NCBI GenBank assembly: GCA_016201865.1
Contig: JACQCA010000012.1
Location: 4,447 to 68,446 of the forward strand
Reading direction: 5' to 3'
DNA from: Nitrospirota bacterium
GTDB lineage: Bacteria > Nitrospirota > Nitrospiria > JACQBZ01
Length of the DNA: 64,000 bases
Position 1 is the stretch's first letter; every line of letters starts with the position of its first letter. Positions 13,080 through 34,006 of the stretch are shown piece by piece. The notes under the pieces are model-generated. The model was not told the DNA's origin. It saw only the letters and a program-made list of their open reading frames with translations, and did no database searches. The position numbers and the translations under genes were made by a program.

Positions 13080-14120
13080 TCACCTCTCTAAATCTCCATT
13101 TAGAAATGAAGACAAGCCCCGTCCATCGTTGGCCGGATTCCGCGTCAAGTTAAAGGGACGCGATCCGTCCGCGCCCATCAGGTACAGCTCCCAGTTCCCG
13201 TCCCGGTTGGTATGAAACTGGATCTCGTTGTTGGTCAACCAGATCGGATCGTGATCGTCCATCACCGTGCGGGTCAGATTGCGTTGATCGGACCCGTCCG
13301 CATTCATGACATAGATCTCCTCGTTCCCGTCCCGGTCCGAAACAAAAGCGATCCGGGTGCCGTCCGGCGACCAGTCCGGAAACCGATCCGATCCAGGGTG
13401 GCGGGTCAGGTTCGTCGTCGCGCCGCCGTCGGAACGCATCACGTAGATCTCGTCGTTCCCGTCGCGATCCGAGACAAAAGCGATCCGGGTCCCGTCCGGC
13501 GACCAGACCGGATACCAACTGTTGGCCTGGTCGCGGGTGAGGTTAAACGGCCTCCGCCCATCGGAATACATCACATAGATCTCCTGATGGCCGTTTCGGG
13601 TCGACTCGAAGGCGATGCGGGTCCCGTCCGGCGACCACTGCGCGTTTTCATCCTCGCCCTTATCGTGGGTCAGCCGCGTCTGATGAGACCCGTCCGCATC
13701 CATGACATAGATCTCCCAGTTTCGATCCCGATGAGAACCGAAGACGATCTTCTTGCCGTCCGGCGACCAGCGGGGGGAATCCTCATCCTCGCTTGTGAAG
13801 GTCAACCGGCGAGGATCCGAACCGTCCTCATTCATCCGATAGATCTCTTTGTTCCCGTCCCGATCCGTCAGAAACACCACCTGTTTTATTCCCAGTATTC
13901 CGACGCTGTAATATTCCGCGGCCTTCGTGTAGGTTAAGCGCTTGAGATGCGAGCCGTCCAGGTACATCATGTAGATCTCCGGATTCCCGTCGCGGTCCGA
14001 AATAAAATGGATCTTAAAATCGGCCGGCAGCTCGCGAATCCCGCGCAATGCCGTCGATAGACAACCGACGGTGACCATCAGCAAGACGATTCCCGCTCTG
14101 AATATCCGTCCCAGCCTCAC
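13080..14120 (-). CDS. TolB-like (PD40 / WD40-like) beta-propeller repeat protein, secreted (346 aa)
   Basis: Track start is GTG. Signal peptide GIVLLMVTVGCLS. PD40 blades: DGNPEIYMMYLDGSHLKRLT, DGNKEIYRMNEDGSDPRRLTF...PRWSPDG, DRNWEIYVMDADGSHQTRLTH, WSPDGTRIAF repeated. Confidence 0.75.
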   Translation of the reverse strand: MRLGRIFRAGIVLLMVTVGCLSTALRGIRELPADFKIHFISDRDGNPEIYMMYLDGSHLKRLTYTKAAEYYSVGILGIKQVVFLTDRDGNKEIYRMNEDGSDPRRLTFTSEDEDSPRWSPDGKKIVFGSHRDRNWEIYVMDADGSHQTRLTHDKGEDENAQWSPDGTRIAFESTRNGHQEIYVMYSDGRRPFNLTRDQANSWYPVWSPDGTRIAFVSDRDGNDEIYVMRSDGGATTNLTRHPGSDRFPDWSPDGTRIAFVSDRDGNEEIYVMNADGSDQRNLTRTVMDDHDPIWLTNNEIQFHTNRDGNWELYLMGADGSRPFNLTRNPANDGRGLSSFLNGDLER

Positions 14121-14228
14121 CGTGCACCGTCATAGGGGCTCGCGTCGCCCCCTCCATCCGCCTCAGGCGGACTGGAGTCTTCCCCTCTCGCTCGCTCCCG
14201 CTCGCTGGGTATCTATCCGTAGGTGTCG

Positions 14229-15317
14229 CTAATTCTTTCGGTCCAGACCGCTTTCATTATATAGCACCACACTGCGCATATCGTCGGCCGGATCATGGGT
14301 CAGGTTGACCAGCCCCGAACCGTCCCGGTTCATCGCGAACAGATCCCAATTCCCCTCCCGGTTTCCAACAAACAGAATCCGCCCGTCCGGAAGCCAGACC
14401 GGGTCGTCCTCTTCGGCGTTGGGCGTGCGGGTCAGGTTCTTGGGGATCGATCCGTCCGAGTTCATGATATAGATTTCCCGGTTCCCATCGCGGGTCGTCA
14501 CAAACGGGAGGTACCGCCCGTCCATGGACCAGGTAAACATCCCGCTCCCGTCATCCGCCGGATTGCGGGTGAGATTCGTCGGATGGGACCCGTCGGCGTT
14601 CATGGCATAAATCTCCCGGTTGCCGTCGCGGGTGGACACGAACCCGATTCGGGTCCCGTCCGGCGACCAGAACGGGTTCCAGTCCAGTCCGGCCGTATCC
14701 GTCAGATTGCGCTGGCCGGACCCGTCGGCATTCATGAGATAGATATCCTCATCCCCGCCCGCCCGCGTGGACACAAAGGCGATCTGTGTTCCGTCCGGCG
14801 ACCACTTGGCGTCGGACTCTTCGGCCTCCGTCCGGGTCAGGCGGGTCGGGTCGGACCCGTCGGCGTTCATCACGTAAACCTCGCGGTTTCCATCCCGCGC
14901 CGATATAAACACGATTTTTTTCTTGTCCGGCGACCAGCGGGGAAAGTCATCCGTTCCGGCGCGGGTCAGTTGACGCTGATCGGTCCCATCCGCCGCCATC
15001 GAATAGATATCCCGCTTTCCCTGATCGTTGTTCACATAGACGACCCGGCTGCCGTCCAATGTCACAACGGCAAAGTACTTGGACCCGCCGCTGTTCGTCA
15101 GCCGGATCGGGTGTTCCCCGTCCGCGTCCATACGGAACAGCTCCCTGCCGCCGGTTCGATTCGACGAGAAGTAGATCTTAAAATCGTTGGTCTCTTGTGG
15201 GATGATCGCTTTCGGCTTGGCCGTCATTCCGGCCATCTGTCCGCAACCGGATATTAACAGGCCCGCCATGATCGCGACCCCGCCCCACAGACTCATCCTT
15301 TTCATAAAACCCTCCAT
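14229..15317 (-). CDS. TolB-like PD40 beta-propeller lipoprotein (362 aa)
   Basis: Lipobox LLISGCGQ. Blades: GGRELFRMDADGEHPIRLT, RDGNREVYVMNADGSDPTRLT, DGNREIYAMNADGSHPTNLT, WSPDG. Confidence 0.8.
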   Translation of the reverse strand: MEGFMKRMSLWGGVAIMAGLLISGCGQMAGMTAKPKAIIPQETNDFKIYFSSNRTGGRELFRMDADGEHPIRLTNSGGSKYFAVVTLDGSRVVYVNNDQGKRDIYSMAADGTDQRQLTRAGTDDFPRWSPDKKKIVFISARDGNREVYVMNADGSDPTRLTRTEAEESDAKWSPDGTQIAFVSTRAGGDEDIYLMNADGSGQRNLTDTAGLDWNPFWSPDGTRIGFVSTRDGNREIYAMNADGSHPTNLTRNPADDGSGMFTWSMDGRYLPFVTTRDGNREIYIMNSDGSIPKNLTRTPNAEEDDPVWLPDGRILFVGNREGNWDLFAMNRDGSGLVNLTHDPADDMRSVVLYNESGLDRKN

Positions 15318-16397
15318 TTAATTGTACGTGCCCGGCTGCAGCCGGATCCCCCTCGTATCGTCGGCCGGGTTATGGGTCAGGTTGGTCACACCGGAACCGT
15401 CCCGGTTCATGGTGTACAGTTCCCAGTTCCCGTCCCGGTTCGTCAGGAACAGGATGCGCCCATCCGGAAGCCAGACCGGATCATCTTCGTCCGCGTTGGG
15501 TGTGTTGGTGATGTTCCTCGGGTTCGAACCGTCCGCATTCATGATGTAGATCTCGCGGTGCCCATCGCGGTTGGTCACGAACGGCAAAACCCGTCCGTCC
15601 GAGGACCAGGTGAACATCCCGCTCCCGTCGTCCGCCGGATTACGGGTCAGGTTGGTCGGATTGGACCCGTCGGCGTTCATCGCATAGATCTCCCGGTTGC
15701 CGTCTCGGGTAGACACAAATCCGATCCGTGTGCCGTCCGGCGACCAGAACGGATTCCAGTCCTCTGCGGGATTCTTGGTCAGGTTACGCTGATTGGACCC
15801 GTCGGGGTTCATCACATAGATCTCTTCGTTGCCGTCGCGGTTGGAGGTGAAGGCGACCGTGTTTCCGCGCGGGAGCCACTGAGGGTCATCCTCCATCCCG
15901 GCCGTGTGAGTCAAGCGCGTCTGATCGGTCCCGTCCTCATTCATGATATAGACCTCGCCGTTTCCATCCCGCTCCGAAATAAACACGATCCTTTTACCGT
16001 CGGGCGACCACCGGGGCGCATAGTCGTCCGCGCTGTTGTTCGTGAGCCGCACCCGATTGGAGCCGTCCGTGTTGATCCGGTAAATCTCGCGGTTGCCGTC
16101 GCCGTCCGTCACATAGACCGCCTTCTTCTCATCCGGCGAGGCCACGGCATAATCCACCTGACCCATCTTCCGGGTCAACCGGGTCTGTCGGCTTCCGTCC
16201 GGCTCCATCATGTAAAGCTCGCGAGCGCCGTCTCGGTAGGAGATAAAAAACAGCTTGAAATTCGAAGACGCCGCGTCTTGAGCGGAAACCTCCGCGGTGG
16301 TTCTGGCGGCCGGCGTCATCGCGGAACTGCAGCCGATCAATCCCAAGACCGTTAGGGCTCCGATCACGGCCTTAAAGAACTGCCCCTCCATCTTCAT
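15318..16397 (-). CDS. TolB-like PD40 beta-propeller lipoprotein (359 aa)
   Basis: Lipobox LGLIGCSSA. Blades DGARELYMMEPDGSRQTRLT, DGNREIYRINTDGSNRVRLT, DGNGEVYIMNEDGTDQTRLT. Its C-terminal half is nearly identical to the preceding paralog (DGNREIYAMNADGS(H/N)PTNLTRNPADDGSGMFTWS.DGR.LPFVT.RDG.REIYIMN.DGS.P.N.T.TPNA.EDDPVWLPDGRILF). Confidence 0.8.
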   Translation of the reverse strand: MKMEGQFFKAVIGALTVLGLIGCSSAMTPAARTTAEVSAQDAASSNFKLFFISYRDGARELYMMEPDGSRQTRLTRKMGQVDYAVASPDEKKAVYVTDGDGNREIYRINTDGSNRVRLTNNSADDYAPRWSPDGKRIVFISERDGNGEVYIMNEDGTDQTRLTHTAGMEDDPQWLPRGNTVAFTSNRDGNEEIYVMNPDGSNQRNLTKNPAEDWNPFWSPDGTRIGFVSTRDGNREIYAMNADGSNPTNLTRNPADDGSGMFTWSSDGRVLPFVTNRDGHREIYIMNADGSNPRNITNTPNADEDDPVWLPDGRILFLTNRDGNWELYTMNRDGSGVTNLTHNPADDTRGIRLQPGTYN

Positions 16398-16451
16398 GGG
16401 TCATCCTCCTGTTAAGCAACTCGATTCACGATCATCAACCCGACGCACGGC

Positions 16452-18401
16452 TTACGGGCGCATCTCGATCGCTTTCGTCAGCAATCGTTTTTGCGCCCCA
16501 TTGGGGTCCGAAATCCAGATTCGGTATTCCCCGCTCGCGTTCGTGACGTAGGCCAGCCACCGGCCGTCGGGACTGACGGTCGGATGCCAGATGCGGGTGC
16601 CGAGCTGCGCCACCGAACGCGTCAACGATACGATCTCCCCGGTTTCCAGATTCTTTCGATACAGTTCATCATGGCCGGCCTCTTCCGCGATAAAATAGAG
16701 ACCCTTTCCGTCCGGGGCCCAGGCCGGCAGTCGCGCCGACGGACCCTGCACGACGGCTTTCGCATCTCGGCCGTCCCGATCCATCACATAAATGGCGGAC
16801 GCTCCGTCGCGGTGCGAAGTAAACGCGATCCGACGGTCGTCGGGCGACCAGGCCGGTTGAACATCCGCGCCGGGGGCGGTCGTCAACCGCATCGGGGTCG
16901 ACCCATCGGACGCCGCGAGGTAGACCTCCCAATTGCCGTCGCGATTGGATTCAAACGCGACCCACTTTCCGTCATGAGACAGGACCGGATCTTCACCCGG
17001 CCCAATCGTATCGCGATGCATCCGTCCGTCGGCCGCCCCGGTCGCCGCGCGCTCGATCCGACCGGTTTCGATCTCCACGACATACCATTCCCGAACCCGA
17101 CCCCGGCCGGCCGCAAAGGTAATCCGGCGGCCGTCCGCAGACCAGACAGGGTGTTCTTCAAAGTAGCCTCCCGTTCCATGCGAGCCTTCCTCGTTCGAGC
17201 GGGCAGTAACGGCAATTTCCTGAAAATCCGCCATACGGATGGCATAAATTTCTTCCCGGCCTCCGCGGTTTGAGGAAAAATAAATTTTCGTTCCATCCGG
17301 CGACCAATACGGGCAGATATCGTTGCCGGGGTTGAATGTCAACCGAGTTTGGTTTGATCCGTCGGAATTCATGACATAGATTTCCGGATTCCCATCTCGG
17401 TATGAGGCAAACGCCACATGTCTCATGTCCGGGGAGAAAACCGGGCTGGATTCGGCCGCCGGGGTTTGCGTCAGCCGGACCCGGCCGGTCCCGTCCGCGC
17501 GGATCGTGTAGACATCCCAATTCCCGTCTTTATTCGATTCAAAAATGATCCTCTGCCCGTCGGAAGACCAGCGCGGGTGATCCTCGTCGGAGGGATAATC
17601 GGTCAGGTCAACGGCCTCGCCCCCCTCCGAGGGCATACGAAAGATGTCCCAATTCCCGCTGCGATTCGAAATGAAGGCCAAGTACCGGCCGTCCGGCGAA
17701 TAGACCGGCGCGTCATTGTCTTTTGGACTGGCCGTCAAGGCCTCCAGACCCGTCCCATCGGGACGGATCCGGTAGATCTGCCAACTCCCGCGCCGGTTCG
17801 ACGCAAAGGCCAGCCATCGGCCGTCCGGCGACCAGACGGGGTTATAATCCTGCGCCGGGGAATTCGTCACGCGCCGGAGGTCCCGTCCGTCCGGTTTCAC
17901 GGTATAGATGTCCCAATTCCCGCTGCGCCGGGAAGAGAAAACGATCCGGCTCCCGTCGGGGGACCAGGCATAACTGCCGTTTCCGTCCTCGGCGCGGTTC
18001 CGGGTCAAATTCACGGGGTTGGATCCATCCTCATTCATCACATACAGCTCGGTGTTGCCGTCCCGACCGGAGACGAAGGCGATGCGTTTTCCATCCGGCG
18101 AGGCCACGGGCCAGATGTAAACCGGTTTGCCCTCGCGAAGATCCATGGGCTGATCTTCCCCTTCCGAAGCATAGGGCTGATTCCCCTTCAATGGGTCTAT
18201 CAGGGAAGGGACCATGCTGCCGCATCCTAAGCTCAGCAGAACGGTTATTGGAATGATGAAGGCGACCAGTAAGGCCACTTGCTTTCTCCTTGCAATTGGG
18301 TCAGCCGCATGACATGGGACCCATCCGGATCCATCAGATGGATCTGATAACTTCCCTCCCGGTTTGAACTGAACGCGATCTGTTTTCCATCCGGCGACCA
18401 T
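16452..18401 (-). CDS. TolB-like PD40 repeat lipoprotein, double-length (about 13 blades)
   Basis: PD40 blades throughout (NTELYVMNEDGSNPVNLT, SWQIYRIRPDGTGLEALT, NPEIYVMNSDGSNQTRLTF...). The track ORF overlaps the upstream gene by 157 nt. A more plausible start is the GTG at ~18278, preceded by AGGAGA, giving (M)ALLVAFIIPITVLLSLGCGS (lipobox LSLGC). Confidence 0.7.
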   Translation of the reverse strand: MVAGWKTDRVQFKPGGKLSDPSDGSGWVPCHAADPIARRKQVALLVAFIIPITVLLSLGCGSMVPSLIDPLKGNQPYASEGEDQPMDLREGKPVYIWPVASPDGKRIAFVSGRDGNTELYVMNEDGSNPVNLTRNRAEDGNGSYAWSPDGSRIVFSSRRSGNWDIYTVKPDGRDLRRVTNSPAQDYNPVWSPDGRWLAFASNRRGSWQIYRIRPDGTGLEALTASPKDNDAPVYSPDGRYLAFISNRSGNWDIFRMPSEGGEAVDLTDYPSDEDHPRWSSDGQRIIFESNKDGNWDVYTIRADGTGRVRLTQTPAAESSPVFSPDMRHVAFASYRDGNPEIYVMNSDGSNQTRLTFNPGNDICPYWSPDGTKIYFSSNRGGREEIYAIRMADFQEIAVTARSNEEGSHGTGGYFEEHPVWSADGRRITFAAGRGRVREWYVVEIETGRIERAATGAADGRMHRDTIGPGEDPVLSHDGKWVAFESNRDGNWEVYLAASDGSTPMRLTTAPGADVQPAWSPDDRRIAFTSHRDGASAIYVMDRDGRDAKAVVQGPSARLPAWAPDGKGLYFIAEEAGHDELYRKNLETGEIVSLTRSVAQLGTRIWHPTVSPDGRWLAYVTNASGEYRIWISDPNGAQKRLLTKAIEMRP

Positions 18402-19312
18402 TGGGGTCCGATGTCGTCCGCCGGATGGTTTGTGAGGTTCCGCAGGCCTTGGCCCTCCACGTCGACGACGTAAATTTCGCCCTTGCCTTGCTGAATCGAC
18501 TCAAAGGCCAATCGGCGGCCGTCCGGCGACCAGGTCGGATTCGAATCGGCGCCGGCCATCCGCGTGAGGCGAATCAGATCAGATCCATCGGCGGCCATGA
18601 CATAGATTTCCCAGTTTCCATCCCGGTTCGATTCAAACGCGATTTTCTTCCCGTCCGGCGACCAGATCGGCGTTTCGCTATCCGCCGGCCCGTGGGTCAG
18701 GGGGACCGGATCGCCGCCGTTTCCATCCGGCCGCACCGCCACCCGATAGATCTCCCAGCGGCCCGCGGTATTGGACTCAAAGGCGATCGCCTCCCCATCC
18801 GGAGACCAGGCCGCCGCCACCTTATCACCCGGAAGATCCGTAAGCCGGGTTCTTGGCTGCCCGTCATTTCGCATGAGATAGATCTCCCGATGGCCCTCTT
18901 CCCCGACCACAAAGGCCAGCCGTCGGCCGTCCGGCGACCAGGCCGGTGAACCTTCCCGTTCCGGCGTCCGCGTCAGCTTGGTCTCTGCGAAATCCCGAAG
19001 GCTCATGCTGTAGATCTCCCAATTGCCGTCCCGGTTGCTGGCATAGGCCAGCCGTTCCCCGTCGGACGACCAGGAGGGCCAGATATTTTTACCGTGCCCC
19101 CGTGTCAGATTCGTCAAGTGGCGTCCATCCCGGTTGACGATGTAAATATCCCGACCTTCCCCATGCAGGAGCGTGAAGGCCAACCGGGGTCCCCGCAAAT
19201 CCGGGTCCGTGGATCCGGATTCACGACCCGCATTTCCCGTCGGCGCACAACCCGCATGGATCAACCCTAAACTCATTGTGAAAAGAGCCAACCGCCATAC
19301 AATTTCCTTCAT
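18245..19312 (-). CDS. TolB-like PD40 beta-propeller lipoprotein (355 aa)
   Basis: Lipobox GLIHAGCAP. Blades NWEIYSMSLRDFAETKLT, HREIYLMRNDGQPRTRLT, NWEIYVMAADGSDLIRLT, WSPDGKKIAF. Confidence 0.8.
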   Translation of the reverse strand: MKEIVWRLALFTMSLGLIHAGCAPTGNAGRESGSTDPDLRGPRLAFTLLHGEGRDIYIVNRDGRHLTNLTRGHGKNIWPSWSSDGERLAYASNRDGNWEIYSMSLRDFAETKLTRTPEREGSPAWSPDGRRLAFVVGEEGHREIYLMRNDGQPRTRLTDLPGDKVAAAWSPDGEAIAFESNTAGRWEIYRVAVRPDGNGGDPVPLTHGPADSETPIWSPDGKKIAFESNRDGNWEIYVMAADGSDLIRLTRMAGADSNPTWSPDGRRLAFESIQQGKGEIYVVDVEGQGLRNLTNHPADDIGPQWSPDGKQIAFSSNREGSYQIHLMDPDGSHVMRLTQLQGESKWPYWSPSSFQ

Positions 19313-19342: not shown

Positions 19343-20476
19343 TCAAGGCCTTTCCTGTCTGGCCTGCTGAATTCCCCAGAGGTGCATGAGAAAGATCTGC
19401 CACGGCCCGCTGTTTTCCTTCCCGATGAAACTGATCCGCGATCCGTCCGGCGACCAGGAAGGAACCTCCTTCTCCGAAACGGCATCCGTCATCGTCTTTT
19501 GAATGCGACCGGCCAGGTCCACGACGGAAATGGTTGCTCCCGCCGTTCCTTTCGAGACAAAGGCGATCATTTTCCCGTCGGGAGACCAACGCGGGCTGTC
19601 TTCTTCTTCCGGCGTCCGCGTCAGTTGCCGCTGATCCAAACCGTCCGCGTTCATCACGTACAGTTCCCAGTTGCCGGTCCGATTGGAAACAAAGGTCAGG
19701 TGTTTCCCGTCCGGGGACCAATTGGGACAGGTGCTCTCCCCCGCGCTCTTTGTGAGCGGCCGGACCGTCGAGCCCCCGCCGCCCATGATGTAGATCTCGT
19801 TGTGGCCGGTTTGATTCGAGACAAAGACGACGTGTTTCATGTCCGGCGACCATTTCTGGTTGTCCTCCACGGCCGCCGTCGCGGTGAGCCTCCGCGTGTC
19901 CGATCCGTCCGGATTCATCGAAAAAAGGTCCCAGCTTCCCGATCGGTCCGAAATAAACATGATCTTCACGCCGTTATTCGACGCCGGGGGAGACCAGATC
20001 GGCCAGCGATCGTTGGCGGCATTCCGGCTTAAATTTTTCTGATGCGAACCGTCCGAATCCATGAGATAGATCTCTTTATTCCCGTCCCGGTTTGAGACAA
20101 ACACCAGATGCTTGCCGTCGGGCGACCAGATCGGGTCGTCGTCCTCGGCCGGATTCTGCGTCAGGTTCCGCGCACGGCCGCCGTCGGCATCCATCGTGTA
20201 GATCTCCTTATTCCCGTCCCGTCCGGACTCGAAGGCCAGGCGGGTTCCGTCCGGCGACCAGACCGGATTCTCCTCATCCGTCTCGGTGCTCGTGAGCCGG
20301 ACGACCACCGGCGTTGTTCGGTTGATCCGCTCGGCTGCCGTTGCATCAAAACCGGATGGCTCGGTCGAGACCCCGCGCATCCCGCAACTCGTCAACACCG
20401 CAAGATTAAAAAGTTGCGCGAACACCAGGACGGCTCTCATCTTATGACTCATTTTATGACTCATTTCGGTCCCCAA
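19343..20476 (-). CDS. TolB-like PD40 beta-propeller lipoprotein (377 aa)
   Basis: Lipobox AVLTSCGM. Blades DGNKEIYTMDADGGRARNLT, DGNKEIYLMDSDGSHQKNLS, HNEIYIMGGGGSTVRPLT, NWELYVMNADGLDQRQLT. Confidence 0.8.
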   Translation of the reverse strand: MGTEMSHKMSHKMRAVLVFAQLFNLAVLTSCGMRGVSTEPSGFDATAAERINRTTPVVVRLTSTETDEENPVWSPDGTRLAFESGRDGNKEIYTMDADGGRARNLTQNPAEDDDPIWSPDGKHLVFVSNRDGNKEIYLMDSDGSHQKNLSRNAANDRWPIWSPPASNNGVKIMFISDRSGSWDLFSMNPDGSDTRRLTATAAVEDNQKWSPDMKHVVFVSNQTGHNEIYIMGGGGSTVRPLTKSAGESTCPNWSPDGKHLTFVSNRTGNWELYVMNADGLDQRQLTRTPEEEDSPRWSPDGKMIAFVSKGTAGATISVVDLAGRIQKTMTDAVSEKEVPSWSPDGSRISFIGKENSGPWQIFLMHLWGIQQARQERP

Positions 20477-28630: not shown

Positions 28631-29662
28631 TCATTTCATTAACTGAGCCACTTGCAGCACGGCAATCTCTCCTCGACCCTCGTCATTCACACGCGTAAAT
28701 GCAAGGTCGCGACCGTCCGGGCTCCATGAGAGATAAAGGAAGCTCAAACCGTCGAAGACCTGTTTATCCACATTATATTTAAGCTCATGCGCTCCCAAGG
28801 CGCCCTTTGCAATGCGCCGCTCATTCTTTCCATCACGGTCCATCAGCCAGATATCCCGTCGGCCGTTCCGTTCCGAGACAAAGGCGATATGGCTTCCGTC
28901 CGGGCTCCAGGCCGGGAGAAAGTCCCGGCGGGTTTCCGTTTTCTGGGTCAATTGTTTAATCGTTCGCTCCGCCGTATCAATGATCCAGATATCGCTCTTG
29001 CCGCGCATCGAGGAAACGGCCGCCACGGATTTCCCATCCGGACTCCAAGCCGATACCCAATCGCCGCAGCGGATATTCGGCATCCCCTGGACGTTTCCGC
29101 CGTCCGCATCCATAACCCAAACGAGGACGTCCATGGATCGTGAAGAAACAAAGGCGATGCGTTTTCCATCCGGACTCCAGACGGGGGCGATATCCAGTCC
29201 ATTGAATTGTGTCAGCTGGCGGTTGTCGGTCCCGTCTAATTTCATGCTCCAGATATCCCAATTTCCGCTGCGATCCGACGCGTAAGCCAGCCGGGCGCCG
29301 TCCGGACTCCAAGAAGCAAAACGCTCATTGCTCGGATTATTCGTGATCTGCTTGAGCCCTGTCCCATCCCGGTTTATCGTCCAGATATCCCAATTTCCGG
29401 CCAGATCGCTTTCAAAAGCCAATGCCTTGCCGTCCGGGCTCCAGACCGGATGAATCGCGTTGGCCGGCAATGCACGGATCGGCATCACGGTCGCATTGCT
29501 CCACGCACAGCCCGCAATCAGCAAAAGAGGGATGAGGTATAAGGAGTAAGTGATCAGCGCATGGCTGATATTCGACCCGGACTTGATCTTTAGATGTCTT
29601 AACCCCTTCATTTTTGTTTCCCTCCTCATCCCGCGGCTTTTGCGTCGCTTCACGGCTGCCAT
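28631..29662 (-). CDS. WD40-like/PD40 beta-propeller protein, secreted (343 aa)
   Basis: Signal-anchor ITYSLYLIPLLLIAGCAWS (lipobox-like). Blades WSPDGKALAFESDLAGNWDIWTINRDGTGLKQIT, WSPDGARLAYASDRSGNWDIWSMKLDGTDNRQLT. Confidence 0.75.
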   Translation of the reverse strand: MAAVKRRKSRGMRRETKMKGLRHLKIKSGSNISHALITYSLYLIPLLLIAGCAWSNATVMPIRALPANAIHPVWSPDGKALAFESDLAGNWDIWTINRDGTGLKQITNNPSNERFASWSPDGARLAYASDRSGNWDIWSMKLDGTDNRQLTQFNGLDIAPVWSPDGKRIAFVSSRSMDVLVWVMDADGGNVQGMPNIRCGDWVSAWSPDGKSVAAVSSMRGKSDIWIIDTAERTIKQLTQKTETRRDFLPAWSPDGSHIAFVSERNGRRDIWLMDRDGKNERRIAKGALGAHELKYNVDKQVFDGLSFLYLSWSPDGRDLAFTRVNDEGRGEIAVLQVAQLMK

Positions 29663-30717
29663 CGGGGCGCACTGACCTCGCTACGGTTGAACGTCAACCG
29701 TTGCGGGTGATCCCCATTCGCATCCATGACGTAAACTTCCTCCGCACCGTCCCGGTTGGAGACAAAGGCGATCCGCTTCCCGTCCGGAGACCAGACCGGC
29801 TGGATATCCGCCGCCGGGTGTCGGGAAAGGTTCTTCACGTCGGAACCGTCCCGATTCATCGCATAGATCTCGCTGTTTCCGTCTCGCGTCGTTGTGAAGA
29901 GGATCTGCCGACCGTCCGGAGACCAGACCTGCATCCCCATTTGCTCATCTGATTTTGTCCGTGTCACGTTGCGCGGCCGGGAGCCGTCGGCATTCATCAC
30001 GTAGATCTCCCAGTTTCCATCCCGGTTCATGTCCCGATCGGTTCCCCAAGCAATCAGCATGCCGTCCGGAGACCAGGAATGGAAGCCCCGGCCGTCCTCG
30101 GCGGGATTCTGGGTGAGATTGATCGGATGGCCTCCATCGGCATCCATGGTATAGATCTCATAGTTGTCGTCCCGTCGGGAGACAAAGGCGATCTTCGATC
30201 CGTCCGGAGACCAGTGGGGGCTGTAATCCCGCGCTTCATTTCGGGTCAGTCGGCTCGGATGGCTGCCGTCGGCCGCCATCGAATAGATCTCTTGATTCCC
30301 GTCCCGATCCGAGACAAAGGCCAAGCGTCCCCCATCGGGAGACCACATCGGGTTATAGTCCTGTGCGCCGTTCCGCGTCAGGTTCGTCGGGTGCGAACCA
30401 TCGGCATTCATGATATAGATCTCTTTGTTTCCATCACGCTCCGAAACGAAGACGATCTTCTTTCCATCCGGGGACCAAAACGGGGAGCGGTTTTCGGCCT
30501 GGGTGTCGGTCAGACGCACGGCGTCTGTACCGTCGGCATTCATCATGTAGATTTCCCATTGACCGCTTTGCTTGGATTCGTAAACGATCTTTTTCTCTCC
30601 GGCCGCAACCGGGTTCGACAGAAACAGCACAACGGCGCCGATGATTAGCACCCCAAGACCCAAAGCGGATGCCCGACCGGCACGGCCTACCATTAAAATG
30701 TCCTTCATCGTTTTCAC
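29650..30717 (-). CDS. TolB-like PD40 beta-propeller protein, secreted (355 aa)
   Basis: Signal LGVLIIGAVVLFLSNPVAA. Blades SGQWEIYMMNADGTDAVRLT, DGNKEIYIMNADGSHPTNLT, DGNQEIYSMAADGSHPSRLT, DDNYEIYTMDADGGHPINLT, DGNSEIYAMNRDGSDVKNLS. Confidence 0.8.
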   Translation of the reverse strand: MKTMKDILMVGRAGRASALGLGVLIIGAVVLFLSNPVAAGEKKIVYESKQSGQWEIYMMNADGTDAVRLTDTQAENRSPFWSPDGKKIVFVSERDGNKEIYIMNADGSHPTNLTRNGAQDYNPMWSPDGGRLAFVSDRDGNQEIYSMAADGSHPSRLTRNEARDYSPHWSPDGSKIAFVSRRDDNYEIYTMDADGGHPINLTQNPAEDGRGFHSWSPDGMLIAWGTDRDMNRDGNWEIYVMNADGSRPRNVTRTKSDEQMGMQVWSPDGRQILFTTTRDGNSEIYAMNRDGSDVKNLSRHPAADIQPVWSPDGKRIAFVSNRDGAEEVYVMDANGDHPQRLTFNRSEVSAPRWQP

Positions 30718-30746
30718 TCCTTTATATATGCCTCAGGATATATGCC

Positions 30747-32966
30747 TCAGGGTTGCCAACGGGGGTAGTCTTCCCTCGTCCGCGTAAAGGTCAATTGGAC
30801 TTGATGCCTGCCGTCTGTATCCATGACATAGATCTCGTCAAAACCGGTCCGATTGGATACAAACGTCACCTTCTCCCCATCCGGGGACCAGAGCGGGACA
30901 TCATCCATCGCCGGGTTTCTCGAAAGATTCAAGGAACCGGTTCCATCCCCATTGACGACATACACCTCTTCGTTGTTGTCCCGGTTCGAAATAAAGGCGA
31001 TCTGTTGACCGTCCGGGGACCACACAAACATCCCGATCCCTTCCTCGGCCGGATGATGAGTCACATTGATTGGTTTAGAACCGTCCGCATTCATCACATA
31101 AATCTCCCAGTTTCCATCCCGGTTTGTAACCCAGGCAATCTTGGACCCGTCCGGCGACCAGGAATGACTTCCGCGGCCGTCTTCGGCGGAGTTTTTCGTC
31201 AGGTCTGTTTGCTCCGCTCCGTCCGGGTTCATGAGGTAGATCTCATTATTGCCGTCGCGATTGGAAACGAAGGCCACTCTTTTACCATCCGGAGACCAGT
31301 TGGGATTCCAGTTATCACCGGCCGCGGTCAAGCGGGATTGGCGCCGTCCTTCCGTGTCCATACGGTAGATCTCACGATGACTGTCCCGCTTGGAAACGAA
31401 TGTGATCCATTGACCGTCTGGCGACATGGAGGGACTGAAATCCTGTCCCTCGCTGCGGGTGAGGTTGCGCTGATCCGACCCGTCCGCATTCATCAGATAG
31501 ACTTCTTTATTCCCATCGCGGTCCGAAACAAATAGAATCGTACGCCCATCAGGAGACCAAAAGGGGGCCCGATTCTCAGCACGGGTATACGTCAGGCGGA
31601 CCTGGCCGGTCCCGTCTGCATTCATGAGATAGATTTCCCAGTTCCCGGATCGCCGCGATTCGAAGACGATCTTATGGCCCGGATCAGGCCGTAGAGAACC
31701 GCTGTGCTGAGCATCCGAGAATGTTCCGGCCAAGGCTTTATGGGCTCCGGTCTTCGCCGTCTCTCCTCGATCGAGAACGGTAAAAGCAAACGGAGCAAGA
31801 AACAGAACCGCAAAGAGGGCCGACACAAACGGGATATGTTTGATCCGACCTTTCTCTTTTTCTCTGCGCCATCGATACAGCATGCGCCGCAACCCTCTTG
31901 GGAAAATTCCCTTCACCGCCCCGAGCATGACGGTCGAAACGACTTTATAATGATCGGCGTCAATCACCGAAACGCTCGATGAGCCCTGGTTCACCACATA
32001 AATCGTCCTTCCATCCGGAGAAACGGTGATGTCCCATGGATCCTTTCCCACCGTAATCTTCTTGACGACCTTCTCCTGCACCGTATCGAGAACCGAGATC
32101 TCATTGGCGTCGCGGTGCGCGATGTAAAGATAGCGGCCGTCCGGCGATAGGGCCAGTCCGCCGGGATAGCTCCCGACCTTTACCATTTTCCGCATTTGGT
32201 TCGTTCGAGTATCCAAAATCGCAATTTCACCGCTGTCCTCAATCGCCGCATAGGCCGTCTTTCCATCCGGCGCCATCACAATATCCCTCGGCCCCCGAAG
32301 GACCTCTTCGCCATCCGGCAGGATGACGGTCCGAGCCGCATCGGAACTCGGATCCTTCAAGTCCAATCGGGCTTTAACGGCGCCGGTGGCCGTATCCACG
32401 ACGCGAATCGAATAGAAATCGGTTACGTAAACGGATTTTCCATCCGGCGTCATCGCCACATTCTGCGGCCCCACGCCGAGCGGAACGCGTTTCTTGACGG
32501 TACGGCTGGCCAGATCCACGATGGACAGGTTATTGCCGGATTCGGTCGCCACGTAGATCGTCCTCCCGTCCGGCGAGACGGCCATCCCGCCCGGATCCAT
32601 ATAACCGCCCTTTTCATCCTTTAATGAAATCTTGGCCCGGATGCTGTTGGAACGGGTGTCCACCACCGCGATCGCATCCGCCTCGCCCAACGCCACATAG
32701 AAATCCCGTCCATCTTGAGTAATGAAGCCGCCGCAGGGGGGAGAGTCGATCGACACCTTGCGGACCTGCGCGGGATCATTCCGGTCAATGATGTAGAACT
32801 GCCGGAGGCCTTTCAACGTCACGAAGAGTTGGGTCGGCCCATAAATGATCCGGCTGGCCGTATGCTTGGCCCAGACCGCGTCGGAACTTTGGAGCACAAG
32901 GCCCGCAGCAAAAATCATCCAGAGAAAGATCGTCTTCCGAGCCCTTATCTTCCCCATGACACCCAT
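30747..32966 (-). CDS. in-frame fusion ORF: N-terminal YVTN propeller (~350 aa) joined without a stop to a complete TolB-like PD40 propeller module carrying its own signal peptide
   Basis: The N-terminal half has YVTN-type blades (YVATESGNNLSIVD, YVTDFYSIRVVD, YIAHRDANEISVLD, YVVNQGSSSVSVID). At residue ~362 an internal Met (ATG ~31883, preceded by AGAGGG) opens MLYRWRREKEKGRIKHIPFVSALFAVLFLAPFAFTVL, a full signal peptide. PD40 blades follow (SGNWEIYLMNADGTGQVRLTY, DGNKEVYLMNADGSDQRNLT, DGNNEIYLMNPDGAEQTDLT...). Each half matches the size of the stand-alone paralogs. Confidence 0.6.
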   Translation of the reverse strand: MGVMGKIRARKTIFLWMIFAAGLVLQSSDAVWAKHTASRIIYGPTQLFVTLKGLRQFYIIDRNDPAQVRKVSIDSPPCGGFITQDGRDFYVALGEADAIAVVDTRSNSIRAKISLKDEKGGYMDPGGMAVSPDGRTIYVATESGNNLSIVDLASRTVKKRVPLGVGPQNVAMTPDGKSVYVTDFYSIRVVDTATGAVKARLDLKDPSSDAARTVILPDGEEVLRGPRDIVMAPDGKTAYAAIEDSGEIAILDTRTNQMRKMVKVGSYPGGLALSPDGRYLYIAHRDANEISVLDTVQEKVVKKITVGKDPWDITVSPDGRTIYVVNQGSSSVSVIDADHYKVVSTVMLGAVKGIFPRGLRRMLYRWRREKEKGRIKHIPFVSALFAVLFLAPFAFTVLDRGETAKTGAHKALAGTFSDAQHSGSLRPDPGHKIVFESRRSGNWEIYLMNADGTGQVRLTYTRAENRAPFWSPDGRTILFVSDRDGNKEVYLMNADGSDQRNLTRSEGQDFSPSMSPDGQWITFVSKRDSHREIYRMDTEGRRQSRLTAAGDNWNPNWSPDGKRVAFVSNRDGNNEIYLMNPDGAEQTDLTKNSAEDGRGSHSWSPDGSKIAWVTNRDGNWEIYVMNADGSKPINVTHHPAEEGIGMFVWSPDGQQIAFISNRDNNEEVYVVNGDGTGSLNLSRNPAMDDVPLWSPDGEKVTFVSNRTGFDEIYVMDTDGRHQVQLTFTRTREDYPRWQP

Positions 32967-34006
32967 TTCTCCTCCGCATCGGTATGCGTCAATCGTCGCG
33001 GGCGAGACCCGTCCCGGTCCATGACATAGACCTCCGAATTCCCATCCCGTGTTGAAGTAAACGCGATCTGTCTTCCGTCCGGAGACCAGACCGGCCAGAA
33101 ATGATCGCCAGGAGCGGTCGTCAGCGGCGTGAGTTCCGAGCCGTCCGGTCTTATCCGGTAAATTTCCTGGCGGCCGCTTCGATCGGACACAAAAAGAAGA
33201 TCGCGGCCGTCCGGAGACCAGACCGGTCCGTCATCCGCGGCCGGATGGTTCGTCGCGTTCCGCGCCCCGGATCCGTCGGACGCCATGACATAGATCTCGC
33301 GATTCGCGTCCCGTTCCGAAACGAACGCGATCTGTCTTCCGTCCGGAGACCAGACGTGGCTGTCCATGCCGTCGCTCGCCGAGTTGTACGTCAGCCGGAT
33401 CTGATTGGAACCGTCACGGTTCATGACATACACCTCAGGGTTTCCATCGCGGGTCGAGACAAACAGAATTTTCGTTCCATCCGGAGACCAAACCGGGATG
33501 GCATCCATGGCCGGGTCATGAGTCAATCGCCGCTCATGAAGCAAGGATGTTCGTTCATCGCCGCCGACGTCCACCGCGTAGATCTCTTCATTCCCATCGC
33601 GCAAGGATGTAAAGACGATCCGCTCCCCCTCCGGCGACCAGTCCGGATCCTCCTCATCGGCCTCGGTGTAGGTCAGCCGCGTCTGCCCTGTGCCGTCGGC
33701 CCGCATCAGATAAAGCTCCTTGTTGCCGTCACGGGTCGAGATGAAGGCGATGCGCGTCCCATCCGGAGACCCGGCCGGCCAGATGTCATCCCCGCGGCTT
33801 CGGGTCAGTCGTTCTTCTTTTCCGGTCGTCGCATCCATGAGATAAATTTCCCAGTCTCCGTCCCGGTTAGAACCGTAAACAAGTCGCGCATGGGGAGCAG
33901 GAGATTCGGAATGGATCCGAACCCCCATGCAGCCTGCCATCATCAATCCCAAAACCCCCAACCATTTCAGCACCGCTCTCGACTCTCGACTCACACTATT
34001 TGTCAA
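32945..34006 (-). CDS. TolB-like PD40 beta-propeller lipoprotein (353 aa)
   Basis: Lipobox LMMAGCMG. Blades DGDWEIYLMDATTGKEERLT, DGNKELYLMRADGTGQTRLTY, DGNEEIYAVDVGGD, DGNPEVYVMNRDGSNQIRLTY, DGNSEVYVMDRDGSRPRRLTH. Confidence 0.8.
   Translation of the reverse strand: MTNSVSRESRAVLKWLGVLGLMMAGCMGVRIHSESPAPHARLVYGSNRDGDWEIYLMDATTGKEERLTRSRGDDIWPAGSPDGTRIAFISTRDGNKELYLMRADGTGQTRLTYTEADEEDPDWSPEGERIVFTSLRDGNEEIYAVDVGGDERTSLLHERRLTHDPAMDAIPVWSPDGTKILFVSTRDGNPEVYVMNRDGSNQIRLTYNSASDGMDSHVWSPDGRQIAFVSERDANREIYVMASDGSGARNATNHPAADDGPVWSPDGRDLLFVSDRSGRQEIYRIRPDGSELTPLTTAPGDHFWPVWSPDGRQIAFTSTRDGNSEVYVMDRDGSRPRRLTHTDAEEKWVSWGR

What the first reader, a model, noticed from the sequence alone, without database searches (positions are those of the whole stretch)
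13080..34006. 21-kb co-directional array of about 17 paralogous secreted beta-propeller lipoproteins (TolB-like PD40, YVTN, Ycf48-like) with 4-30 nt overlaps or gaps
Seen in the sequence: successive 320-390 aa ORFs, nearly all with lipobox or signal peptides. Each encodes a single propeller built from D(G/R)N.EIY.MN.DGS....LT...WSPDG (PD40) or YV(T/A)N...(N/D)..SVID (YVTN) blades. Neighbouring genes overlap by ATGA-type 4-nt or 8-22-nt overlaps, so they are probably co-translated. Paralogs are diverged (different lipoboxes, blade sequences), with one recent partial duplication (the C-terminal 200 aa of 14229..15317 and 15318..16397 are near-identical). Real TolB has an extra N-terminal domain and is single-copy, so these are not Tol-Pal components. 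Inference: an expanded family of periplasmic or surface-tethered propeller scaffolds, perhaps a diversified binding repertoire associated with the cytochrome and adhesin systems in the same window. I do not know a described system with this organisation.
Basis: partly seen in the sequence, partly recalled or inferred. Interest (0 to 1): 0.65.

Follow-up and report, generated by a model that had tools for sequence, protein, structure and literature searches.

The report
Conserved 17-gene secreted beta-propeller array
An uncultured groundwater Nitrospirota bacterium carries a real, anciently conserved run of 17 genes for secreted, non-enzymatic beta-propeller proteins directly downstream of genes for OmcE-type "nanowire" cytochromes; it probably encodes binding or scaffold parts of that cell-envelope apparatus, but the function has not been tested.

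Summary
Window 13080-34006 (minus strand) has 17 tightly packed genes encoding 20 beta-propeller domains. These are 12 single PD40 propellers, one double PD40, two YVTN/YncE-like, one YVTN+PD40 fusion and one double Ycf48-like. All have signal sequences and 12 have a lipobox-like cysteine.

Three genes encode two propellers rather than one. The "recent near-identical" duplication is an old mosaic shared by relatives.

The array is not a fast-diversifying repertoire. It recurs gene for gene, in the same order, on at least 7 independent contigs of related uncultured Nitrospirota. Every position forms its own orthogroup, and ortholog dN/dS is 0.07-0.28.

The proteins are not TolB. They score below the NCBIfam cut-off, lack the TolB N-domain and are modelled with seven blades.

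The array follows three FGE-fold proteins that lack the FGE catalytic cysteines, an 11-haem cytochrome with an OmcE-like N-domain, two giant adhesin-like proteins and a canonical OmcE-type nanowire cluster. PD40+FGE-fold fusions exist elsewhere.

However, tandem arrays of secreted PD40 propellers also occur in unrelated bacteria without cytochromes.

Best reading: each gene encodes a non-catalytic, individually specialised, outer-membrane-tethered binding subunit of an envelope assembly. That assembly is probably linked to the cytochrome apparatus.

The parts
32945..34006 (-). PD40 propeller lipoprotein (353 aa). It is the first gene of the array, and its TTG start overlaps the stop of the last FGE-like gene by 4 nt (TTGA).
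   Evidence: PF07676 E=7e-67. Lipobox-like MAGC. Orthologs in L002, L001 and L055 at 54-73%. dN/dS 0.19.
30747..32966 (-). Fusion protein (739 aa): YVTN/Lactonase-type propeller, then an Arg/Lys-rich hydrophobic linker that looks like a relic signal peptide, then a PD40 propeller.
   Evidence: Pfam Lactonase, Cytochrom_D1 and YNCE in the N-half and PD40 x5 in the C-half. The fusion is conserved in L001, L055 and L002, and the linker is deleted in L002.
29650..30717 (-). PD40 propeller (355 aa) with a signal peptide and no lipobox. Closest paralog of the C-half of 30747 (60%).
28631..29662 (-). PD40 propeller lipoprotein (343 aa as longest ORF), a divergent paralog.
   Evidence: PF07676 E=4e-55. 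Lipobox IAGC. Orthologs at 64-94%.
26771..28618 (-). Double Ycf48-like (BNR/Asp-box) propeller lipoprotein (615 aa), the unique marker used to find the array elsewhere.
   Evidence: PF14870 E=8.5e-92 with 9 stretches. NF010237 scores 363 bits with 11 stretches. Orthologs at 58-78% at the same array position.
25611..26774 (-). PD40 propeller lipoprotein (387 aa). ATGA overlap with the upstream gene.
24647..25717 (-). Divergent PD40 propeller. The likely true start is ATG at 25585 (312 aa). Signal peptide, no lipobox.
   Evidence: PF07676 E=1.8e-46. Start preceded by a Shine-Dalgarno-like (SD-like, ribosome-binding) motif. Orthologs of 300-322 aa.
23608..24681 (-). YVTN/YncE-like propeller (357 aa) with a signal anchor or signal peptide.
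   Evidence: PF21783 E=5e-26. Orthologs at 47-84%.
22646..23611 (-). YVTN/YncE-like propeller lipoprotein (321 aa).
   Evidence: PF21783 E=6e-26. PDB 1l0q (M. mazei surface-layer protein) E=2.8e-54 and hydrazine synthase beta E=5e-31. Lipobox LAGC.
21565..22653 (-). PD40 propeller lipoprotein (362 aa), the fastest-evolving member.
   Evidence: dN/dS 0.28. The L060 ortholog is only 43% identical.
20461..21546 (-). PD40 propeller (361 aa), the paralog modelled by AlphaFold2. Seven blades (residues 54-358) after a disordered N-terminus and linker.
   Evidence: AlphaFold2 pLDDT 89.4, pTM 0.82. Foldseek: TolB TMq (TM-score normalised to query length) 0.59, 7-bladed S9-peptidase propeller TMq 0.74. 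TIGR02800 below cut-off.
19343..20476 (-). PD40 propeller lipoprotein (377 aa as longest ORF).
18245..19312 (-). PD40 propeller, probable lipoprotein (355 aa).
   Evidence: PF07676 E=6e-75. Only four clear orthologs (65-67%) in the 5.8-billion-protein collection.
16452..18401 (-). Double PD40 propeller lipoprotein. The likely true start is GTG at 18278 (about 608 aa).
   Evidence: PF07676 E=2e-116 with 10 stretches. SD-supported start. Orthologs of 612-617 aa.
15318..16397 (-). PD40 propeller lipoprotein (359 aa), old paralog of 14229.
   Evidence: dN/dS 0.07.
14229..15317 (-). PD40 propeller lipoprotein (362 aa), old paralog of 15318, with a 0-nt gap to it.
13080..14120 (-). PD40 propeller, probable lipoprotein (346 aa), the last PD40 gene.
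11678..13072 (-). BNR/sialidase-like propeller (464 aa), 7 nt downstream of the array. It belongs to the same conserved syntenic block.
   Evidence: PF13088. Orthologs at 75-77% directly after the 13080 ortholog in L048-L051.
34003..36503 (-). Three paralogous FGE-fold (SUMF1/PvdO/PorK-like) secreted proteins immediately upstream of the array. The one aligned (34003-34872) lacks the human FGE catalytic cysteines.
   Evidence: PF03781 E=1e-55 to 1e-59. Alignment of 34003-34872 to human FGE shows Thr and Ser at the C336 and C341 positions. The trio is conserved with the cytochrome in L001, L055, L002, L056 and L058.
36529..39843 (-). 1104-aa cytochrome with 11 CXXCH motifs and an OmcE-like N-terminal domain. 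It is the conserved partner of the FGE-like trio.
   Evidence: PDB 7tfs (OmcE filament) E=6e-12 over residues 74-314. Orthologs at 62-64% in L001 and L055, 39-43% in L056 and L058.

Best explanation
Shown. The region is a conserved, tightly packed, single-strand block of 17 genes encoding 20 non-catalytic beta-propeller domains (PD40, YVTN and Ycf48-like). The proteins are exported, and most are lipid-anchored. None has Asp at +2, so by the E. coli sorting rule they would go to the outer membrane. All duplications are old. Each position is an individually conserved orthogroup under purifying selection in a narrow clade of uncultured Nitrospirota.

Inferred. Each propeller is a specialised binding subunit with its own fixed partner, not an interchangeable copy. 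The residues that are conserved among orthologs but differ between paralogs are concentrated on the innermost strand A, which lines the central channel, with strand D and the D-A loops next. In TolB-type propellers that region is the canonical ligand site. Together with the three FGE-fold proteins translated just upstream, the propellers would form or organise an outer-membrane-tethered periplasmic or surface assembly. That assembly would serve the adjacent extracellular-electron-transfer apparatus: the OmcE-type cytochromes, the 11-haem cytochrome and the giant LamG/fn3 surface proteins. Possible roles are holding, positioning or anchoring these components. This would be an expanded version of the one or two beta-propeller lipoproteins found in OmcE/OmcS nanowire clusters.
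For: - Domain content and export signals.
- A confident seven-bladed stand-alone propeller model with no catalytic domain.
- 1:1 orthology in the same order on L001, L002, L055, L059, L060, L049, L050 and L051, with monophyletic orthogroups.
- dN/dS of 0.07-0.28.
- Strand A shows 0.86 identity within orthogroups against 0.31 between paralogs, the largest contrast of any structural element.
- The block cytochrome, then 3 FGE-like genes, then propellers is conserved. There is a 4-nt TTGA overlap between the last FGE-like gene and the first PD40 gene.
- The more distant L058 has NHL, cytochrome, 3 FGE-like genes and 3 PD40 genes.
- FGE-fold and PD40 domains are fused in unrelated proteins: P0190 and NCBIfam TIGR02171, which is hit by both window proteins.
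- YVTN and PD40 propellers are fused in 30747 and its orthologs.
- The upstream genes are OmcE homologs (7tfs E=1e-15 to 7e-18). With them are two NHL lipoproteins, a PPIase and a probable beta-barrel with a C-terminal Phe. This is the published hallmark set of OmcE clusters, which includes beta-propeller lipoproteins (bioRxiv 10.1101/2025.10.22.684050).
- OscE/F/G of the OmcS companion operon are proposed secretion factors (Shen et al. 2025, as cited in PMC13194489).
Against: - There is no experimental or expression data, so operon structure is unproven.
- Tandem arrays of 6-10 secreted PD40 propellers occur in unrelated genomes with no cytochrome or FGE-like genes nearby (L061, L062, L063). 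An array therefore does not need cytochromes.
- The cytochrome plus 3 FGE-like module occurs in L056 followed by TPR proteins instead of propellers.
- The known nanowire-cluster propellers are, in this window, of the NHL type, which is a different family from PD40.
- The column-conservation contrast is modest and depends on the alignment.
- Sub-cellular side (periplasmic or surface) is inferred from an E. coli rule that may not hold in Nitrospirota.
Confidence: 0.4

Rival explanations
1. The array is an autonomous envelope module. Tandem sets of secreted PD40 propellers would be a general feature of some bacteria, for example binding cell-wall, peptide or polymer ligands as TolB-like periplasmic binders. 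The position next to cytochrome genes in this clade would then be historical and carry no functional coupling.
For: Three of four randomly sampled stand-alone PD40 homologs from other lineages lie in tandem PD40 clusters without cytochromes or FGE-like genes. L056 has the cytochrome plus FGE-like module without propellers. PD40 domains also occur fused to wHTH regulators and ECF-sigma proteins, which fits a generic extracytoplasmic binding or sensing role (Pfam lists).
Against: Adjacency to the cytochrome/FGE-like core is conserved, with a 4-nt overlap, across lineages diverged to about 55-65% identity. L058 also pairs the core with PD40 genes. FGE+PD40 domain fusions exist.
Confidence: 0.3
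2. The propellers are surface-exposed structural or adhesive proteins: an S-layer-like coat or mineral/biofilm adhesins, working with the giant LamG/fn3 proteins. They would not be periplasmic scaffolds.
For: The YVTN members are most similar to the Methanosarcina mazei surface-layer protein (1l0q, E=2.8e-54). The neighbouring 2769-aa and 1519-aa proteins are acidic, with LamG, fn3 and Ig-like domains. Most PD40 members are acidic, with pI 4.7-5.4.
Against: No S-layer anchoring domains and no surface-lipoprotein export signal could be identified. Seventeen distinct subunits conserved 1:1 are not typical of a coat built from one or two proteins. Localisation was not testable here.
Confidence: 0.15
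3. One reading: a diversifying repertoire of interchangeable binding propellers, produced by recent expansion under positive selection.
For: There are many paralogs with different blade and loop sequences. The loops between strands D and A vary between paralogs.
Against: All duplications predate the split of the lineages sampled, and every position has its own ortholog in the same order. dN/dS is 0.07-0.28. The supposedly recent duplication is an old shared mosaic. Copy number is almost invariant, with one extra YVTN gene in L059.
Confidence: 0.05
4. The propellers are substrate-gating or substrate-delivery partners for proteases or peptide uptake. This would be analogous to the PD40-type propellers of S9 peptidases and the tricorn protease.
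For: The best structural superposition is with the 7-bladed propeller of S9 peptidases (TMq 0.74). Pfam DPPIV_N and Peptidase_S9_N hits were found.
Against: No peptidase domain is present in any array protein or anywhere in the 64-kb window.
Confidence: 0.07
5. The array is an assembly artefact, or the genes are Tol-Pal components.
For: None beyond the repeated domain type and the generic 'Tol biopolymer transport system component' names given by JGI.
Against: Paralogs are only 31-60% identical, and the same array is found in independent assemblies from different samples. TIGR02800 scores below its cut-off, there is no TolB N-domain, the model has seven blades, and there are no tol/pal neighbours.
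Confidence: 0.01

Closest known systems
TolB (Tol-Pal system), C-terminal PD40 beta-propeller
   Same: Same repeat family (PF07676). TolB is the best PDB sequence match (E about 4e-26) and the best Foldseek match. Both are periplasmic protein-binding propellers.
   Different: The array proteins have no TolB N-terminal domain. The model has seven blades rather than six. TIGR02800 scores below its cut-off (290 against 343 bits). There are 14 PD40-containing genes in tandem instead of one gene in a tol-pal operon. Most are lipoproteins.
Beta-propeller lipoproteins of OmcE/OmcS cytochrome-nanowire clusters (osc operon) and NHL propellers of other extracellular-electron-transfer operons (Uet of Tenderiales, D. 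ferrophilus, SEEP-SRB)
   Same: They are non-catalytic propeller lipoproteins encoded with OmcE-type cytochromes, a PPIase and a large beta-barrel. The window contains exactly such a set at 53607-63650 on the same strand (bioRxiv 10.1101/2025.10.22.684050; bioRxiv 10.1101/2022.05.06.490989; PMC9769857; PMC12246660).
   Different: Known clusters have one or two propellers. The two in this window's cluster are of the NHL type. Here 17 further genes (20 domains) of PD40, YVTN and Ycf48 type follow, about 20 kb away and behind an FGE-like trio. Homology of the array proteins to OscE/OscF was not tested.
NCBIfam TIGR02171 family lipoproteins (Fibrobacter succinogenes paralogous family) and metagenomic protein P0190
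   Same: They combine an FGE-sulfatase-fold domain and PD40 repeats in one exported protein. The window encodes the same two domain types as adjacent genes.
   Different: In the window the domains are on separate polypeptides in a 3 + 17 gene arrangement. The scores to TIGR02171 are far below its cut-off, so the resemblance is only at domain level. The function of TIGR02171 proteins is also unknown.
Hydrazine synthase beta subunit and the M. mazei surface-layer YVTN propeller
   Same: The YVTN members match both (E=5e-31 and 2.8e-54). HZS-beta is a precedent for a seven-bladed propeller with no active site serving as a structural subunit of a haem-protein complex (PMC12758564).
   Different: There are no HZS alpha or gamma homologs here, and the resemblance is at the fold and repeat level only.
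PorK/GldK-PorN ring of the type IX secretion system
   Same: PorK/GldK is an FGE-fold outer-membrane lipoprotein that builds a large periplasmic ring. The window's FGE-like proteins hit PorK/GldK (PDB 9mzu E=1.3e-15; TIGR03525 at 94 bits) and, where aligned (34003-34872), lack the FGE catalytic cysteines.
   Different: Scores are far below the GldK cut-off of 350 bits. No other T9SS genes are present. This is an analogy for how FGE-fold lipoproteins can be structural, not a membership claim.

Membership tests
PD40 / WD40-like beta-propeller repeat family (PF07676) | Pfam PF07676 score above the gathering threshold, with multiple repeats | tested here: met
   14 of 17 genes score 143-378 bits against a cut-off of 20.9, with 3-10 separately significant repeats. 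A 44-residue periodicity gives 7 repeats in most single-domain members.
TolB (Tol-Pal system) | NCBIfam equivalog TIGR02800 score at or above its curated cut-off | tested here: not met
   290.3 bits against a cut-off of 343.15 for 20461-21546. PRK01029 scores 167 against 405. Only this one paralog was tested.
TolB (Tol-Pal system) | N-terminal alpha/beta TolB domain preceding the propeller | tested here: not met
   No TolB N-domain family appears among the Pfam hits of any array protein. In the model only a signal segment and a disordered linker precede the propeller.
TolB (Tol-Pal system) | Six-bladed propeller | tested here: not met
   The AlphaFold2 model of 20461-21546 has seven blades with velcro closure, pLDDT 89. 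The superposition is better on 7-bladed S9 propellers (TMq 0.74) than on TolB (0.59).
TolB (Tol-Pal system) | Single gene in a tolQRA-tolB-pal-cpoB neighbourhood | tested here: not met
   No Tol or Pal families were found among the 40 large ORFs of the window.
YVTN / YncE-like seven-bladed propellers (PF21783, PF10282) | Pfam score above the gathering threshold | tested here: met
   22646-23611 and 23608-24681 score 92 bits against a cut-off of 27.1. The N-half of 30747 scores 50.6 bits on YNCE and 83.9 bits on Lactonase.
Ycf48 / HCF136 photosystem II assembly factor | Family model above cut-off, single ~330-aa propeller, and occurrence in an oxygenic phototroph | tested here: inconclusive
   PF14870 scores 308 bits and NF010237 scores 363 bits against a cut-off of 326. 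However, the protein is 615 aa with 9-11 matched stretches, so it is a tandem double domain whose score is summed. The host is a Nitrospirota MAG. It is a fold relative, and the Ycf48 function is not implied.
Accessory beta-propeller lipoproteins of OmcE/OmcS nanowire (osc-type) clusters | Encoded together with an OmcE/OmcS-type polymerising cytochrome and a large outer-membrane beta-barrel | tested here: inconclusive
   This is met for the two NHL lipoproteins at 53607-54716 and 61637-62761. They flank three OmcE homologs, a PPIase and a 655-aa probable barrel. The array itself lies 20 kb downstream on the same strand, next to a cytochrome with an OmcE-like N-domain.
Accessory beta-propeller lipoproteins of OmcE/OmcS nanowire (osc-type) clusters | Sequence homology to the G. 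sulfurreducens cluster propellers (OscE/OscF or the omcE-cluster lipoproteins) | not tested
Formylglycine-generating enzyme (for the three upstream FGE-fold genes) | Catalytic copper-binding cysteine pair (human C336/C341) | tested here: not met
   The HMMER alignment of 34003-34872 to human FGE places Thr and Ser at the two positions (residue numbering from established knowledge of human FGE). The other two copies were not aligned.

The most novel reading that the evidence does not exclude
The 17 propeller genes, the three catalytically dead FGE-fold proteins and the flanking BNR and Kelch-like lipoproteins would together encode a previously undescribed, stoichiometric multi-propeller envelope machine in Nitrospirota. 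This machine would assemble, anchor or insulate OmcE-type cytochrome filaments and giant adhesins. More generally, tandem arrays of secreted PD40 propellers in diverse bacteria would build hetero-oligomeric periplasmic or surface scaffolds.
Probability: 0.2. Interest if true: 0.75.

Novelty: new variant of a known kind. Interest (0 to 1): 0.55.

Why it matters
How cytochrome nanowires and other extracellular-electron-transfer complexes are secreted, anchored and organised in the envelope is an open question (PMC12307469, section 5.4; bioRxiv 10.1101/2025.10.22.684050). The only recurrent non-cytochrome clues are a beta-barrel, a PPIase and one or two propeller lipoproteins.

This window comes from an uncultured Nitrospirota clade. 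Here that accessory theme appears expanded to at least 20 individually conserved propeller domains plus three FGE-fold proteins. If the link is real, it gives a rich, testable parts list for such an apparatus in a phylum where extracellular electron transfer is poorly understood.

Independently, tandem arrays of secreted stand-alone PD40 propellers recur in unrelated bacteria. This points to an uncharacterised, apparently common envelope feature for a very large family that is usually just labelled 'TolB-like'.

Tried and rejected
- Exact-sequence look-ups of window proteins returned nothing. The source is known only through a 100% match of one FGE-like protein named 'MAG: Nitrospirae bacterium'.
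- I checked the Manganitrophaceae idea. The mBio comparative paper mentions no propeller, PD40 or FGE genes, so I dropped it. The lineage below phylum level remains unknown.
- Literature searches for PD40 or TolB-like arrays with multihaem cytochromes, and for FGE with multihaem cytochromes, found nothing relevant.
- Shen et al. 2025 (osc machinery) is not held in the library, so its content is cited only second-hand (PMC13194489).
- Promoter and terminator scans were no better than shuffles.
- Ycf48-like homologs in other phyla (L003-L047) are ordinary single genes without the array.
- The AFDB Foldseek library was unavailable.
- I did not use the second structure job. A two-propeller model without cross-domain co-variation would not have been informative.
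- I considered and rejected: Tol-Pal membership, assembly artefact, a recent or diversifying expansion, and true FGE enzymatic function.

Full report
**Source and layout**

The window comes from an uncultured Nitrospirota (Nitrospirae) MAG. One FGE-like protein is 100% identical to an NCBI entry named 'MAG: Nitrospirae bacterium' on a 79.9-kb contig. Every sizeable gene in the 64 kb is on the minus strand, and GC content is even at 0.53-0.61.

**Checking the observation**

Between 13080 and 34006 there are 17 consecutive ORFs. Pfam assigns them as follows:
- PD40 (PF07676, E = 1e-42 to 1e-116) in 14 genes.
- YNCE/Lactonase/Cytochrome-D1-type (YVTN) propellers in 22646-23611, 23608-24681 and the N-half of 30747-32966.
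- PSII_BNR/Ycf48 in 26771-28618.

Three genes encode two propellers each: 16452 (double PD40), 26771 (double Ycf48-like) and 30747 (YVTN+PD40). The count is therefore 20 propeller domains in 17 genes, not one propeller per gene.

All 17 proteins carry an N-terminal hydrophobic signal. By my reading of the sequences printed, 12 have a lipobox-like motif ending in Cys, and none is followed by Asp.

Junctions are tight. Three are exact 4-nt overlaps (ATGA, ATGA, TTGA). Once two over-long ORF starts are replaced by starts preceded by a Shine-Dalgarno-like (ribosome-binding) motif, all junctions lie between about -34 and +108 nt.

Paralogs are 31-60% identical. This excludes a collapsed or concatenated repeat.

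The 'near-identical C-terminal 200 aa' of 14229 and 15318 is overstated. The two are 59% identical overall and about 82% over about 140 C-terminal residues.

**The array is old and conserved**

I used unique, non-paralogous neighbours as probes: the FGE-like gene, the Ycf48-like gene and the BNR gene. With these I recovered related loci from the GTDB genome collection, JGI metagenomes, Logan and NCBI.

Eight contigs from different samples (L001, L002, L055, L059, L060, L049, L050, L051) show the same genes in the same order. Each window gene's best match is the gene at the equivalent position:
- 72-94% identity in the closer relatives.
- 54-73% in L001 and L055.
- Second-best (paralog) matches are 33-61%.

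In a neighbour-joining tree of 60 PD40 domains every array position is a monophyletic group.

Differences between genomes are few:
- One extra YVTN gene in L059.
- A strongly diverged 21565 ortholog in L060 (43% identity).
- A 597-aa insertion between the cytochrome and the FGE-like genes in L055.

The 14229/15318 mosaic (N-half about 50%, C-half about 80%) is identical in the relatives. Orthologs (84-90%) are closer than the within-genome paralogs throughout. It is an old event, not a recent partial duplication.

Nei-Gojobori dN/dS between the window and its closest available orthologs is 0.07-0.28 for all 17 genes. dS is 0.7-1.6 and therefore near saturation, so the ratios are rough.

The array is thus a stable set of individually maintained genes, not a rapidly diversifying repertoire.

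**What the proteins are**

An AlphaFold2 model of 20461-21546 (pLDDT 89.4, pTM 0.82) shows three parts:
- a signal segment;
- a disordered linker of about 20 residues;
- a seven-bladed propeller closed by a C-terminal 'velcro' strand.

The 44-residue period gives seven repeats in most single-domain paralogs.

The best sequence and Foldseek matches are TolB. Geometrically the model superposes better on the seven-bladed propellers of S9 peptidases (TMq, the TM-score normalised to query length, is 0.74 against 0.59).

Four tests argue against TolB membership:
- TIGR02800 scores below its cut-off (290 against 343 bits).
- No N-terminal TolB domain is detected.
- The blade number differs.
- There are no tol/pal neighbours.

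No array protein has a catalytic domain.

The YVTN members are most similar to the Methanosarcina mazei surface-layer protein and to hydrazine synthase beta. The latter is a propeller with no active site that acts as a structural subunit of a haem-protein complex (PMC12758564).

I mapped alignment columns onto the model's strands. The innermost strand A, which lines the central channel, is the most conserved element among orthologs (0.86) yet among the least conserved between paralogs (0.31). Strand D and the D-A loops come next, while the A-B turn (SPDG) is conserved everywhere. This suggests paralog-specific binding at the canonical propeller site, but it is no proof.

**Context**

Immediately upstream, and overlapping the first PD40 gene by 4 nt, are three paralogous FGE-fold proteins (34003-36503). 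In the one aligned to human FGE (34003-34872), the residues at the catalytic C336 and C341 positions are Thr and Ser. Their relatives include PvdO, CalU17 and the T9SS ring lipoprotein PorK/GldK.

Before them lies a 1104-aa cytochrome with 11 CXXCH motifs. Its N-terminal domain matches the OmcE nanowire subunit (7tfs, E=6e-12; the identity of 7TFS is from PMC12954529).

Further upstream are two giant acidic LamG/fn3/Ig-like proteins of 2769 and 1519 aa.

At 53607-63650 there is a set consisting of:
- a five-haem cytochrome;
- three tandem OmcE homologs (the two tested match 7tfs at E=1e-15 and 7e-18);
- two NHL-propeller lipoproteins;
- a SurA-like PPIase;
- a 655-aa S/G/T/N/Y-rich protein ending in Phe, a probable beta-barrel.

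[quoted passage not shown] It also parallels the osc (OmcS companion) operon, for which folding and secretion roles are proposed (Shen et al. 2025, cited in PMC13194489). Similar propeller and PPIase partners occur in the Uet module (bioRxiv 10.1101/2022.05.06.490989), in D. ferrophilus (PMC9769857) and in SEEP-SRB operons (PMC12246660).

Downstream of the array, five more propeller-type genes continue to the start of the window.

**Is the array functionally tied to the cytochromes?**

Evidence for a tie:
- The order giant protein, then 11-haem cytochrome, then 3 FGE-like genes, then propellers is kept in L001 and L055. L002 keeps the FGE-like genes followed by the propellers.
- In a much more distant lineage (L058; cytochrome 39% identical) the NHL, cytochrome and 3 FGE-like core sits next to three PD40 genes.
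- FGE-fold and PD40 domains are fused in one polypeptide in unrelated proteins. P0190 has Pfam FGE at residues 69-292 and five PD40 repeats further C-terminal (best stretch 510-544). The NCBIfam TIGR02171 lipoprotein family is hit by both window proteins in different parts of its profile.
- The conserved YVTN+PD40 fusion shows that different propeller classes of the array act together. It retains what looks like the second gene's signal peptide as a linker in three lineages and has lost it in L002.

Evidence against a tie:
- L056 has the cytochrome plus 3 FGE-like core followed by TPR proteins, with no propellers.
- I sampled four stand-alone PD40 homologs from other, unrelated metagenomic lineages. 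Three lie in tandem co-directional PD40 clusters of 8 genes (L061), 10 genes (L062) and about 6 genes (L063). These have Sec signal peptides and no cytochrome or FGE-like genes within 10 kb. The fourth (L064) is essentially solitary.

Tandem arrays of secreted PD40 propellers are therefore a recurrent phenomenon, undescribed as far as the literature held here shows. The cytochrome linkage is specific to this clade.

**Best explanation and its limits**

Well supported:
- This is a conserved block of exported, mostly lipid-anchored, non-catalytic propellers.
- Each is kept for its own role.

Inferred:
- They are fixed-partner binding subunits.
- Together with the FGE-fold trio they form or organise an outer-membrane-tethered assembly serving the adjacent OmcE-type electron-transfer apparatus. 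This would be an expanded analogue of the one or two propeller lipoproteins of known nanowire clusters.

I put this at about 0.4. The main rival is an autonomous envelope-binding module with no cytochrome coupling, at about 0.3. Smaller shares go to:
- a surface-coat or adhesin role;
- a protease-partner role;

Tol-Pal membership and assembly artefact are excluded.

**Novelty**

The protein families are ordinary, and propeller accessories of cytochrome operons are known. What is new:
- the scale (17 genes, 20 domains);
- the ancient 1:1 conservation;
- the pairing with a cysteine-less FGE-fold trio and an OmcE-domain cytochrome;
- the recognition that PD40 tandem arrays recur elsewhere.

I rate this a new variant of a known kind, of moderate interest.

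Noticed in passing
window 53607-63650 (-): This is a canonical-looking OmcE-type cytochrome-nanowire cluster. It holds a 5-CXXCH cytochrome (62781-63650) and an NHL lipoprotein (61637-62761). Three tandem 4-CXXCH cytochromes follow (60518-61618, 59280-60437, 57915-58952); the two tested match the OmcE filament 7tfs at E=1e-15 and 7e-18. After them come a SurA-like PPIase (56793-57767), a 655-aa probable beta-barrel with no Pfam hit that ends in Phe (54716-56683), and a second NHL lipoprotein (53607-54716).
   Followed up: partly
window 34003-39843 (-); L001, L055, L056, L058: A module made of a ~900-1100-aa multihaem cytochrome (OmcE-like N-domain in the window) plus three paralogous FGE-fold proteins is conserved well beyond the array-bearing clade. 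The one copy aligned to human FGE lacks the catalytic cysteines. The module has different downstream partners: TPR proteins in L056, and three PD40 genes plus a 3756-aa protein in L058. I found no description of this module in the literature.
   Followed up: partly
window 39924-48233 and 48299-52858 (-): Two giant, very acidic secreted proteins of 2769 aa (pI 4.5, four LamG_3 domains plus fn3 and Ig-like) and 1519 aa (pI 4.5) lie between the two cytochrome modules. Counterparts of 1500-3700 aa flank the related loci.
   Followed up: no
window 30747-32966 (-), residues ~355-400; L002 5719-7797: The conserved YVTN+PD40 fusion keeps an internal Arg/Lys-rich plus hydrophobic segment that looks like the signal peptide of the formerly separate downstream gene. 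The closest relative (L002) has deleted exactly this segment. It is unclear whether the segment is a membrane anchor, a relic or an internal start.
   Followed up: partly
L061 7795-16426; L062 4094-16403; L063 8670-20990: Unrelated metagenomic genomes (GC about 50% for L061 and L062) carry tandem co-directional arrays of 8, 10 and about 6 secreted single-propeller PD40 genes, with no cytochromes nearby. In L061 even the signal peptides are conserved between the copies (57-81% identity), which indicates a younger expansion.
   Followed up: partly
window 852-13072 (-): The run of propeller-type genes continues past the stated boundary. It includes BNR (11678-13072), a 1050-aa Cys-rich Kelch-like lipoprotein (8501-11653), two proteins with no Pfam hit (7288-8475, 6023-7228), a CarboxypepD_reg protein (5218-6012), YNCE-like (4107-5162), Sortilin/BNR-like (2918-4150) and a 648-aa NHL protein (852-2798).
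   Followed up: partly
window + strand, e.g. 11810-13054, 14295-15257, 15372-16355, 23710-24639, 33101-34030: Long ORFs of 300-414 aa run antisense to the propeller genes. They are most likely non-coding shadow ORFs of GC-rich repetitive coding sequence. I did not examine them.
   Followed up: no
L059 12828-13790; L060 6505-7659; L055 6596-8389: Small lineage-specific changes occur in the otherwise fixed array. L059 has an extra YVTN gene between the 16452 and 15318 orthologs. L060 has a strongly diverged (43%) ortholog of 21565. L055 has a 597-aa gene related to 8501-11653 inserted between the cytochrome and the FGE-like genes.
   Followed up: no
proteins (P0142, P0168, P0173, P0200); L063 12421-16077: PD40 propellers of this subfamily are also found fused to winged-helix (Trans_reg_C) regulators and to ECF-sigma-type domains. 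This suggests that they can act as extracytoplasmic sensor domains.
   Followed up: no
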